Shown piece by piece: positions 5,901-8,900 of a DNA stretch of 64,000 nt (within the stretch, counting starts at the first letter, position 1; every line of letters begins with the position of its first letter). The stretch lies in NCBI GenBank assembly GCA_051294375.1, contig CM119269.1, positions 21,189,665 through 21,253,664 on the forward strand, written 5' to 3'. The notes below the pieces were generated by a model. It made no database searches. It had not been told where the DNA came from and saw nothing but the letters and a program-made list of their open reading frames with translations. The position numbers and the translations under genes were made by a program. Source of the stretch: Paraspadella gotoi. Lineage: Eukaryota > Animalia > Chaetognatha.

Positions 5901-8900
5901 TCTTTTTTATTCAGAGTTGATAAGCTAAAGCTCCATCAGCGTCTACACACTGGAGAAGGCCGGGCTGACGTAAGTTGATTTTCATATATTCTTCGACTTA
6001 TACTAACGCCTTAGGAAATAGATCTGATCATTGGAAACAGCATGAAAAGAGACAGGAACATGGGAACAAAATTAGAAAAAAAGTATACATAAGCGAAATA
6101 TAATTTAATTTCAACTCTCGCCTCTTTCTTCTGGCATTGGTTTTTGGATCGATCCACACCTATCTCTTTTAGTAAAGGATTTCAATATGAAGTGGCTGTT
6201 TTCGATACACCTTTTAGTATGACTTAAAAAATAATGTTCGCTTTGGACCTTTTCTGGCAGCTCGGCGACGGAAACTCATTAGTGCCGTTTACAGCAGAAA
6301 AGAAGCATTTTTGTCAAGGCAAGTCCACACTTCTTTGACTTCTCTTTTTAAATTATTACAAAGATTATATTTGTTTGTCGTATATCTAAGCAGAAAGCTA
6401 TTTATAACATAAACAAAATTTTTTCCATCAAAAAGATTGCGGCAAAGGCTTTACAAGAATTGAAAAGCTGCGCATCCATACAAGAATACACACCGGCGTT
6501 AGACCTTATAAATGTCGGTTTAAAGAGTGTGAAAAAACGTTTTACCGTTGGGAGGCCTGGAAGAGGCACGAAACTCGCCACACAAAAGAGGTGAGAAGTT
6601 TTATGCTCGCCTAAACGCAATAAGTATGTTTGTCTCATTGCACAACTAAAAAGACCATGGATCGATCCAAACTAATTGTCGTAAAAACAAAATAAAATAC
6701 TTAGCAGATTCCGACCATACCGCGGGAAAAAACTCACATTTGCGAATGTGGGAAGGCATTTACTTTCGCGTTCAAGTTAAGAATACATCAGCGTATACAT
6801 ACTGGAGAACGACCATATTCGTGCCGGTAACGATCTATTAAAAGTATTACAAATGCTGATGTGACCAGTAATATAAAAAATCAAATATGGCTACTTTTTA
6901 AGTTTTTGCGAAAAAACCTTTTACCGCGGAGACCATTGGAAAAAGCATCAACAAAGTCACATAAATAAAGAACTAAAGGTGAGATGCTAAATGTTACCAG
7001 AGTTTTGCTGGTTTGGATCGATTTCATTAGTCTTTGAGATTTGTCCGATTGCGCATTTTTGGCAAAGACCAACCGAGAAGAATCCTTTACTTGTTAAGAT
7101 ATGGACTATATAGAGAAATGTGGATCTGTCCTTACCAGTAGAGCCTGGCGACATCTTATGAAAGGGCACGAAATAATTGTTGACAATTTGCACCGACAAA
7201 TCGCATAAAAATCTCAAATGTTCTTTGCCCCATCCAAGGCCTCAAATCAAAACGCCTTAGGGCCCGCTGGCATGAATTCCCTAAGCCTTTTGCCGAGGGA
7301 GCGAGCTGAAAAGAAACACTGGTGTGAGGAATGCGGGAAAGGCTTCACTCGCTTAGGTAGGGTCAATTGATAAGCTTGGTCTTTCGATAGAAAAAAAAAT
7401 TATTTCGATATTATCTAACATTATCAAACTCTCATTTTTTATCACGCTGACCTTTCAAAATAGACAAGTTACGGATACATAACCGGATACACACGGGAGA
7501 AAAGGTGAATTTATTTTAATGAAATTGTTGACCGAAAATTATACAAAATTTAATCTGCACCGACAGCCGTACACCTGCCAATATTGCCAGGAAGCCTTCC
7601 ACCGCTGGGACCAAAAGAAAAGGCATGAGCAAGCTCATGAGGCTCAGGTCAGGGAGGTATCCAATCTAAAACAAATCAAAGCAAAAAAAGTAAAAAGGAC
7701 CAGTATTATCACTAGACAAACCCTTTAAAGAACTGCTGGTCTCTTTTCATAACTGTTATACTGCATGATATCTTCAAAGAATCAGACGTAGTCTTTTCTA
7801 ATATCTCGAGAAAAGTTGAAATTCCAACTCTCCCTTTTCTGACAGTTAAATGGTACTTCTGCCCTAGTACCAGCTGGCCCTGCTGAGAAAAAACATTTTT
7901 GCCCTGAATGTGGCAAAGGGTAAGTTGATTTCATTCCACTTCTTCAAAATCCATTGTTCATGTACCTATACAATTTTTTTTTCGCTTTTTAGTTTCACTC
8001 GCATAGAAAAGTTAAGGATACACAATAGGTAAATGCCTCAGAAAAAGTGTAAAAATGCCAGTTTTCTTAAGATTTAATTCTATTAAACTAAATTTTTTGC
8101 CCATTCGCTCCGTCGATTACGCTATAAAACAATTATATAATCTTAGGATACACACTGGCGTTCGACCGTATGCATGTCGTCATTGTCAGAAAACTTTTTA
8201 CCGTTGGGAAGCATGGAAAAGACATGAAACTAGACACACTCAAGAAAAGAAGGAGGTGAGATTTTTGAGAAAATATATATTTTTTTAAAGAGATAGCCGT
8301 TTCCTTTGATGAGACCTATCATTAAAACAAGCATACCAAGCAATCAATACTAGTGAGAAAAAACTAAAATTATAAATATTTTACTGTACTACTTTACTCT
8401 TCAGCCGCCTATACCTCGCGAAAAAATTCATATCTGTGATGTCTGTTCCAAAGCATTCACTTTTGCATTCAAATTACGAATTCACCAAAGATTACATACT
8501 GGCGAAAGACCTTACCAATGCCGGTAAAAAAATATTGGTTAACTTATGATATATATTTTAAAATTAATATTTATCTTCATCTAAGATTTTGTGAAAAAAC
8601 TTTTTATCGGGGCGATCACTGGAAAAAGCATCAACAAAGTCACATAAACAAAGATTTGAAGGTGATACAATTAAAAAAATATATAAAATTTTAATGATAC
8701 AGGGTTTGGATCGATCCAAGCCAAAAATTTTATCCGTCTGTTTAACTAGTTTTTAACTGGTTTAGGCGAATGCAAACAATGCGCTGGTCCCAGTTCAACC
8801 TGGGTCATTAGTCCCCAGACCACGGGGTGAAAAAAAGCATTTTTGTACCGAATGTGGCAAAGGATTCACTCGTGCTGACAAATTACGAATTCATAACCGA

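What the first reader, a model, noticed from the sequence alone, without database searches (positions are those of the whole stretch)
6139..8722. Recurrent self-complementary TGGATCGATCCA motif in inter-cassette introns
Seen: the 12-bp palindrome at 6145-6156 (before A1), 6658-6669 (A1/B1), a partial ggtttggatcgat at 7010-7022 (B1/C1) and an extended ggtttggatcgatccaagcc at 8703-8722 (B2/C2), in otherwise divergent AT-rich introns. I did not notice it elsewhere in the window. Inference: because the motif is a palindrome, any copy can pair with any other copy in the pre-mRNA and loop out the cassettes between them, a symmetric any-to-any version of docking/selector pairing. An alternative is a dimeric protein-binding DNA site.
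Basis: partly seen in the sequence, partly recalled or inferred. Interest (0 to 1): 0.78.

Follow-up and report, generated by a model that had tools for sequence, protein, structure and literature searches.

The report
Intron palindromes reshuffle zinc-finger modules
In one zinc-finger gene, short self-complementary sequences sit in the introns between duplicated two-finger modules, and transcripts skip modules between complementary intron pairs, so RNA base-pairing likely decides which DNA-binding fingers the protein gets.

Summary
The motif is real: 3 exact copies (0.02 expected by chance), one half copy and a degenerate fifth copy. All lie in introns of a eukaryotic C2H2 gene built from 11 in-frame two-finger cassettes. 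It is part of a larger set that includes a second palindrome family (CACTGCGCAGTG, 5 copies) and three non-palindromic helices. Spliced contigs from one run show five skips (3 shown as joints, 1 as a loose end, 1 inferred from depths). All five are bracketed by strong intron-intron helices, ranked 3, 4, 5, 9 and 18 of 406. Flanks tailor the partners, so 'symmetric any-to-any' is not shown. Equilibrium folds favour other pairs, which counts against a simple model. Two crossing helices give a serpent-type switch between multi-exon blocks B2-C2-A3 and B3-A4. Read-through peptides suggest the second palindrome is kept in relatives; conservation of the first could not be tested. Verdict: a new variant of RNA-pairing-directed splicing. 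There is no mutational proof and only one library.

The parts
6136..6162 (+). P0: palindrome copy (core 6145-6156) in intron E6/A1; its 5' flank is complementary to the 3' flank of P1
6649..6682 (+). P1: palindrome copy (core 6658-6669) in intron A1/B1; its 3' arm abuts a CTAAT branch-point-like word 30 nt before B1; complementary to P0, P2 and P3
   Evidence: branch-point consensus recalled, not tested
7008..7036 (+). P2: half palindrome (7010-7022) in intron B1/C1 with flanks tailored to P1 (24 bp, -29.0); P1/P2 brackets B1
   Evidence: A1>C1 joint
7114..7140 (+). X: degenerate fifth copy (core 7121-7132); predicted local competitor for P2
8703..8722 (+). P3: extended palindrome in intron B2/C2, at the position homologous to P2; predicted 8-bp self hairpin
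5450..5480 (+). T: arm upstream of the one-finger exon E5
   Evidence: (I7)
5743..5774 (+). T2: partner of T downstream of E5; the pair brackets E5, which is skipped in one contig
   Evidence: loose end before 5912
8328..8358 (+). R: non-palindromic arm in intron A2/B2
9602..9631 (+). R2: partner of R in intron A3/B3; R/R2 brackets B2-C2-A3
   Evidence: A2>B3 joint
9563..9574 (+). Q1: second palindrome family, intron A3/B3, upstream of R2 (the two helices cross)
10317..10328 (+). Q2: second family, intron A4/B4; compatible read-through peptides in relatives
10408..10419 (+). Q3: second family, intron A4/B4; Q1/Q2-Q3 brackets B3-A4
   Evidence: A3>B4 inferred
11376..11387 (+). Q4: second family variant (core TGTGCA), intron B4/D
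12038..12049 (+). Q5: second family variant (core TGCACA, complementary to Q4), intron D/F1; Q4/Q5 brackets D
   Evidence: joint across D
6186..6219 (+). S: arm in intron E6/A1 complementary to 10318-10350 (would bracket A1 to A4); no matching joint seen
6261..11693 (+). Array of 11 phase-0 cassettes, two C2H2 fingers each: A1 6261-6590, B1 6705-6978, C1 7239-7647, A2 7846-8255, B2 8405-8661, C2 8766-9069, A3 9136-9541, B3 9689-9956, A4 10027-10293, B4 10826-11344, D 11475-11693
   Evidence: splice joints
4420..5969 (+). Upstream exons: E3, 11-nt microexon 5419-5429, one-finger exon E5 5658-5741, E6 5915-5969

Best explanation
The palindromes are intron elements of a cassette-built zinc-finger gene that likely base-pair across the pre-mRNA with preferred partners and would loop out whole two-finger modules, changing the finger array without breaking the reading frame. 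Shown: the elements, their complementarity, the in-frame cassettes and the skip junctions. Inferred: (1) An ancestral intronic palindrome was copied with each cassette duplication, and any two copies are complementary from birth. (2) Flanks then diverged into matched pairs (P1/P2, Q4/Q5), self-sequestered copies (P3) and local decoys (X, Q2-Q3). (3) P1/P2 skips B1 by looping it out and masking its branch point. (4) P0 likely holds P1 first and blocks the first-come A1>B1 splice until intron E6/A1 is removed, a balancer-like role and the weakest step. (5) The crossing helices R/R2 and Q1/Q2-3 make B2-C2-A3 and B3-A4 alternative blocks.
For: All 11 cassettes are phase 0, stop-free and carry 2 fingers. 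The eight combinations of the observed choices are open and give 14-19 fingers over the exons modelled. Five skips occur in run X1: A2>B3 and B4>F1 (joints), A1>C1 (joint), E5 (loose end), and A3>B4 (bin depths fit 19.69/19.7 and 12.49/12.5). Their flanking intron pairs rank 3, 18, 9, 4 and 5 of 406. The four inter-cassette ones rank 3, 4, 8 and 15 of 66 (about 2e-3 by my own arithmetic, with a cut-off chosen after the fact). Each of 9 tested pairs beats every one of 20-60 dinucleotide shuffles (z -3.7 to -8.8). P1/P2 is the best net pair at 5 of 9 flank sizes. In the fold of 6591-7250, P1/P2 (0.25) competes with P2/X (0.74), which fits both junctions being seen. Paralogous cassettes differ at 25 of 46 synonymous codons (B1/B2), and the best local alignment of their downstream introns is the 13-nt motif alone. 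Read-through tails of A4 orthologues allow the second palindrome 12/12 in 5 of 8 proteins (2 tails too short, 1 at 11/12), against 0 of 1429 background windows.
Against: The raw-strongest pairs of the first motif (P1/P3 -32.8, P0/P3 -32.6, P0/P1 -29.4) and S/S2 (-30.4) have no matching joint. In the ranking of 66, six of the top nine pairs are unmatched. Whole-region equilibrium folds favour P0/P1 (p 1.0) or P1/P3 with P2/X over P1/P2. They also favour Q1/Q3 (0.96) over R/R2 (0.04), although A2>B3 is the deeper contig. P1/P2 is not first at 4 of 9 flank sizes. The sense-versus-antisense test did not separate RNA from DNA symmetry. The RNA comes from one run, as contigs, possibly from the same source as the window. 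The first motif has no cross-species data. There is no probing or mutagenesis.
Confidence: 0.7

Rival explanations
1. Symmetric any-to-any looping: every copy pairs with every other copy and all the intervening cassette sets are skipped in some cell type.
For: All six pairs among P0-P3 give duplexes of -20 to -33 kcal/mol. All predicted joints are in frame. Equilibrium folds favour P0/P1 and P1/P3.
Against: Only P1/P2 has a matching joint among the 11 joints and 3 loose ends listed, none hidden; contigs cannot prove absence. The flanks are partner-specific and P3 folds on itself.
Confidence: 0.13
2. DNA sites for a dimeric protein (possibly autoregulation), with skipping controlled by something else.
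For: Perfect 12-bp dyads; antisense duplexes are about as strong as sense ones.
Against: It does not explain the non-palindromic pairs T/T2 and R/R2, the mutually complementary half-broken copies (P1/P2, Q4/Q5), or the match of all five skips to bracketing pairs.
Confidence: 0.06
3. Neutral relics of cassette duplication or gene conversion.
For: P2 and P3 sit at homologous positions after B1 and B2; Q1 and Q2 follow A3 and A4.
Against: Synonymous sites are strongly diverged and the introns align only at the motif. P0 and P1 sit in non-homologous introns. Q2 is compatible with read-through peptides of relatives whose neighbouring intron codons differ.
Confidence: 0.05
4. The elements mainly drive back-splicing (circular RNA) or pairing between two transcripts (trans-splicing); a palindrome allows homodimers.
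For: Self-complementarity permits intermolecular duplexes (inference). RNA-pairing-aided trans-splicing is reported for sDscam (PMC9258826, search listing only).
Against: All real joints listed are forward and in gene order. The one 'goes back' joint is cassette A2 mis-laid on A1 at the cut region end.
Confidence: 0.06

Closest known systems
Drosophila serpent (srp) exon 4 bidirectional RNA pairing (PMC4691838; abstract, introduction and one results section read)
   Same: Four intron elements (one upstream, two in the middle intron, one downstream) form two crossing helices that pick one of two alternatives, in a zinc-finger transcription factor gene. R/R2 and Q1/Q2-3 have this layout.
   Different: Here the alternatives are 7-exon and 3-exon blocks carrying 6 and 4 C2H2 fingers, one helix is seeded by a palindrome, and the switch sits in an array with several further skips. 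No mutational test here.
[quoted passage not shown]
   Same: Tandemly duplicated units and competing long-range pairings. One element (P1) is complementary to several. Extra pairings (P0/P1, P2/X) may work like balancers.
   Different: It is not one-of-N choice: transcripts carry many cassettes. There is no docking site outside the cluster, the seeds are self-complementary, and the product is a DNA-binding finger array, not a surface receptor.
Duplication origin of competing structures (PMC6071210; passages and Discussion read)
   Same: Duplication of exon plus flanking intron creates competing helices.
   Different: [quoted passage not shown] Here a whole palindrome is duplicated, so copies are mutually complementary at once. 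The paper's main text holds no 'palindrom' or 'self-complementary'.
Inverted Alu loop-out exon skipping (PMC13019027, PMC13019944; search listing only)
   Same: Complementary intron sequences loop out exons.
   Different: The elements here are 12-30 nt, gene-specific within the window, and not recognisably transposon-derived (not tested genome-wide).

Membership tests
srp-type bidirectional pairing | One upstream element, two in the middle intron, one downstream, forming two helices | tested here: met
   R 8328, Q1 9563 and R2 9602, Q2/Q3 10317/10408
srp-type bidirectional pairing | The two helices cross (pseudoknot order) | tested here: met
   8328 < 9563 < 9602 < 10317 (criterion)
srp-type bidirectional pairing | Alternatives are mutually exclusive in mRNA | tested here: inconclusive
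   A2>B3 joint and A3>B4 by depth fit; A3>B3 does not fit the depths, but contigs drop rare forms
srp-type bidirectional pairing | Alternatives are single duplicated exons | tested here: not met
   Blocks of 7 and 3 exons
srp-type bidirectional pairing | Elements conserved across species with kept pairing | tested here: inconclusive
   Only Q2, and only through read-through peptides; no genomic relative found
srp-type bidirectional pairing | Disruptive and compensatory mutations switch splicing | not testable with these tools
   needs minigenes
Dscam-type docking site/selector MXE cluster | Tandem homologous alternatives | tested here: met
   cassette tree and alignments
Dscam-type docking site/selector MXE cluster | Exactly one variant per mRNA | tested here: not met
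   single contigs carry C1-A2, B3-A4 and B2-C2-A3 in series
Dscam-type docking site/selector MXE cluster | Single docking site outside the cluster | tested here: not met
   several independent pairs inside the array; S/S2 and P0 lie upstream but have no matching joint
Repeat-derived inverted-repeat loop-out (Alu-like) | Elements are copies of a dispersed repeat | tested here: inconclusive
   no exact copy outside this gene in 64 kb; genome not held
Known structured RNA family (Rfam) | Match above the gathering score | tested here: not met
   2 weak hits far below threshold in 5400-12300

The most novel reading that the evidence does not exclude
A Dscam-like diversifier for a transcription factor: self-complementary intron seeds let any two cassette boundaries pair, so one gene writes a large, cell-specific repertoire of zinc-finger arrays, and every new cassette duplication brings its own splicing switch with it.
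Probability: 0.2. Interest if true: 0.88.

Novelty: new variant of a known kind. Interest (0 to 1): 0.7.

Why it matters
It shows a compact, testable case (about 7 kb, short introns) in which the finger content of a C2H2 protein varies by in-frame, multi-exon module skipping, and every skip seen has a bracketing intron helix. It also suggests a simple route by which competing RNA structures arise: duplicate a palindrome, then break its symmetry. The gene seems to hold two independent palindrome series caught at different stages of that process, which makes the link between exon duplication and structure-guided splicing directly testable.

Tried and rejected
Genome-wide count: no genome held. 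Genomic relatives in JGI metagenome contigs: two scans, 89 and 57 pattern hits, none confirmed, so the first motif's conservation is untested. Homologue searches: one search gave 4 generic zinc-finger proteins; one search gave one spliced relative (P0005) ending in cassette A1; one search listed 120 of 3844 hits, of which 4 carry this gene's cassette words; the 150 listed representatives held no further orthologue by motif screen. The Atlas gave no answer. The organism was not determined. 'Animal' is only a guess from gene content (kinesin, galactosyltransferase and ubiquitin hydrolase neighbours). No run on record as RNA was listed; X1 is guessed RNA, but its contigs skip introns at splice sites. 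Joints E6>B1, E6>C1, E6>C2, A1>C2, B1>C2 and E6>B4 were not seen in one contig set, which cannot prove absence. In one search, 15 of 30 joints were hidden; six reappear, eight are inferred from record 5, and one stays unseen. The sense-versus-antisense energy test was inconclusive: 10 of 13 windows chosen on the sense strand, but only 6 of the top 10 in an independent search. Conservation of S2 in read-through tails was rejected (11/14, reached by 170 of 658 background windows). Whole-region equilibrium folds do not reproduce junction use. Rfam: nothing. Earlier findings of the scan: none in 3 look-ups. Literature: no paper on self-complementary intron elements or multi-exon zinc-finger module skipping by RNA pairing in searches (open-access library only; no supplements read).

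Full report
Observation. The 12-mer TGGATCGATCCA occurs exactly three times in the window, at 6145, 6658 and 8707. Shuffles give 0.02 on average and 0 of 100 reach 3. The half copy at 7010-7022 and the extended copy at 8703-8722 are as written. I call them P0, P1, P2 (half) and P3. A degenerate fifth copy X lies at 7121-7132. A second palindrome family, CACTGCGCAGTG, has five copies (Q1-Q5) in later introns of the same array (6 hits against 0.45 expected, one outside the array). These two families are the only GC-containing 10-mer palindromes found three times in 64 kb. No genome is held, so a genome-wide count was impossible.

The gene. It is a plus-strand eukaryotic C2H2 gene (Pfam). After exon E3, an 11-nt microexon, a one-finger exon E5 and exon E6 come 11 cassettes: A1, B1, C1, A2, B2, C2, A3, B3, A4, B4 and D. 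Each is a multiple of three, stop-free and carries exactly two fingers, so any cassette-to-cassette skip keeps the frame. The B cassettes form the one well-supported group in a tree of the 11. Recognition helices differ by type, so module choice would be expected to change DNA contacts (inference). Three introns start with GC. A relative's spliced protein, P0005, has the same N-terminal exons. The organism was not determined.

RNA. One run holds the gene, as contigs, with its RNA status only guessed; its contigs skip introns at splice sites. One search listed 15 of 30 joints, including A2>B3 (skips B2-C2-A3, depth 26.9) and B4>F1 (skips D, 71.6). One search (5600-7900) listed all 11 joints and 3 loose ends. 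These include A1>B1 6.43, A1>C1 6.56, B1>C1 8.15, an unbranched E6>A1, and a loose end showing microexon>E6 (E5 skipped). The one 'goes back' joint is cassette A2 mis-laid on its paralogue A1. Depth arithmetic's bins places the ends of its record 5 as A2>B2-C2-A3>B4 (19.69 vs 19.7, 12.49 vs 12.5, 15.44 vs 15.6; the alternatives miss by more than 1). So five skips are seen: three as joints, one as a loose end, one inferred. Contigs do not phase across branches, so the eight combinations (14-19 fingers over the modelled exons) are inferred.

Pairing against junctions. I scored the best local duplex for all 406 intron pairs, with no junction filter. The pairs that bracket the five skips rank 3 (R/R2, A2>B3), 4 (T/T2, E5), 5 (Q1/Q3, A3>B4), 9 (P1/P2, A1>C1) and 18 (Q4/Q5, D). 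Among the 66 inter-cassette pairs the four relevant ones rank 3, 4, 8 and 15; by my own arithmetic that is about 2e-3, with a cut-off chosen after the fact. Each of nine tested pairs beats all of its 20-60 dinucleotide shuffles. Two of the five helices are not palindromic, which a DNA-dyad reading does not predict.

The copies are not equivalent. P1 and P2 have flanks matched on both sides (24 bp, -29.0) and form the best pair net of self-folding at 5 of 9 flank sizes; P0/P1 leads at the other 4. P3 folds into its own 8-bp hairpin (-11.0). P2 has lost the half that would let it do so and has a local partner in X. In the fold of 6591-7250, P1/P2 has 0.25 and P2/X 0.74, which fits both junctions being present. 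The 3' arm of P1 abuts a CTAAT word 30 nt before B1 (branch-point consensus recalled), and the P0 helix covers it. Q4 and Q5 show the same symmetry breaking: their cores changed to TGTGCA and TGCACA, which pair with each other.

Against. Only 1 of the 6 pairs among P0-P3 has a matching joint, and six of the nine strongest inter-cassette pairs are unmatched. Equilibrium folds of whole regions pick P0/P1, P1/P3 with P2/X and Q1/Q3 over R/R2, which does not mirror the contigs. Co-transcriptional splicing of intron E6/A1 would remove P0, and P3 is made about 2 kb after P1, so order of synthesis can reconcile this; that step is inference. The sense-versus-antisense test was inconclusive.

Selection. 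B1 and B2 differ at 25 of 46 codons for identical residues, yet the best local alignment of their downstream introns is the 13-nt motif alone. This argues against a fresh duplication relic. No genomic relative was found. However, metagenome gene calls on the single-exon cassette A4 read through into the next intron: 5 of 8 such proteins can encode the second palindrome 12/12 at 19-23 nt after the donor (two tails are too short, one gives 11/12), against 0 of 1429 background windows. These eight fall into three clusters, and the five into two, so this is two independent lineages at most, and indirect. The first palindrome has no such test.

Mechanism. Most likely (0.7), the elements pair in the nascent transcript with preferred partners and loop out whole modules. 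P1/P2 skips B1 in competition with P2/X. T/T2 skips E5, and Q4/Q5 skips D. R/R2 and Q1/Q2-3 cross and so make B2-C2-A3 and B3-A4 alternatives. P0 probably acts as an early holder of P1, and P3 as a mostly self-silenced copy; both may give rarer junctions in other cells.

Comparison. It works like the serpent bidirectional switch (PMC4691838: abstract, introduction and one results section read). It meets that system's layout criteria but not the single-exon one. It is not a Dscam-type one-of-N cluster. The extra pairings resemble Dscam1 balancers (PMC8791459, abstract only). The duplication model of PMC6071210 (passages and Discussion) copies one arm of a stem; copying a whole palindrome is a variant that the text does not mention. 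Searches found no paper on this arrangement, in an open-access library only, and no supplements were read.

Verdict. This is a new variant of structure-guided alternative splicing, acting on multi-exon zinc-finger modules with palindromic seeds. Interest 0.7; the any-to-any diversifier reading has probability 0.2 and would merit 0.88.

Noticed in passing
window 6003-6101: A half-finger remnant inside intron E6/A1 with a branch-point-like word and an acceptor at 6021. Spliced after E5 it would complete a finger with a different helix and then stop. Only an unspliced contig covers it.
   Followed up: partly
window 6186-6219 with 10318-10350: A 27-bp predicted helix that would loop out A1 to A4 and overlaps Q2; no matching joint seen.
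   Followed up: partly
window 5419-5429: An 11-nt microexon supplies part of a finger; it is confirmed by loose-end letters and by the relative P0005.
   Followed up: yes
window 6318, 8917, 9266: Three GC-AG introns among the 29 introns modelled; the relative P0005 appears to read into the first of them.
   Followed up: partly
window 6703-6705: Tandem acceptor (NAGNAG) before B1; the contig uses the upstream AG.
   Followed up: no
window 11475-11693: Cassette D is the most divergent unit, is intact, and has an orthologue (P0021), but the contigs join across it.
   Followed up: partly
window 14672-14890: A further finger pair far downstream of the array, before a Pro/His-rich tail.
   Followed up: no
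window 13427-13736: A 23-nt tandem repeat in a downstream intron.
   Followed up: no
window 12300-12900: An intronic stretch with very high contig depth and many loose ends, probably a dispersed repeat.
   Followed up: no
window 32452-32958, 54252-54812, 57467-57844: Neighbouring genes with ubiquitin hydrolase, galactosyltransferase and kinesin domains.
   Followed up: no
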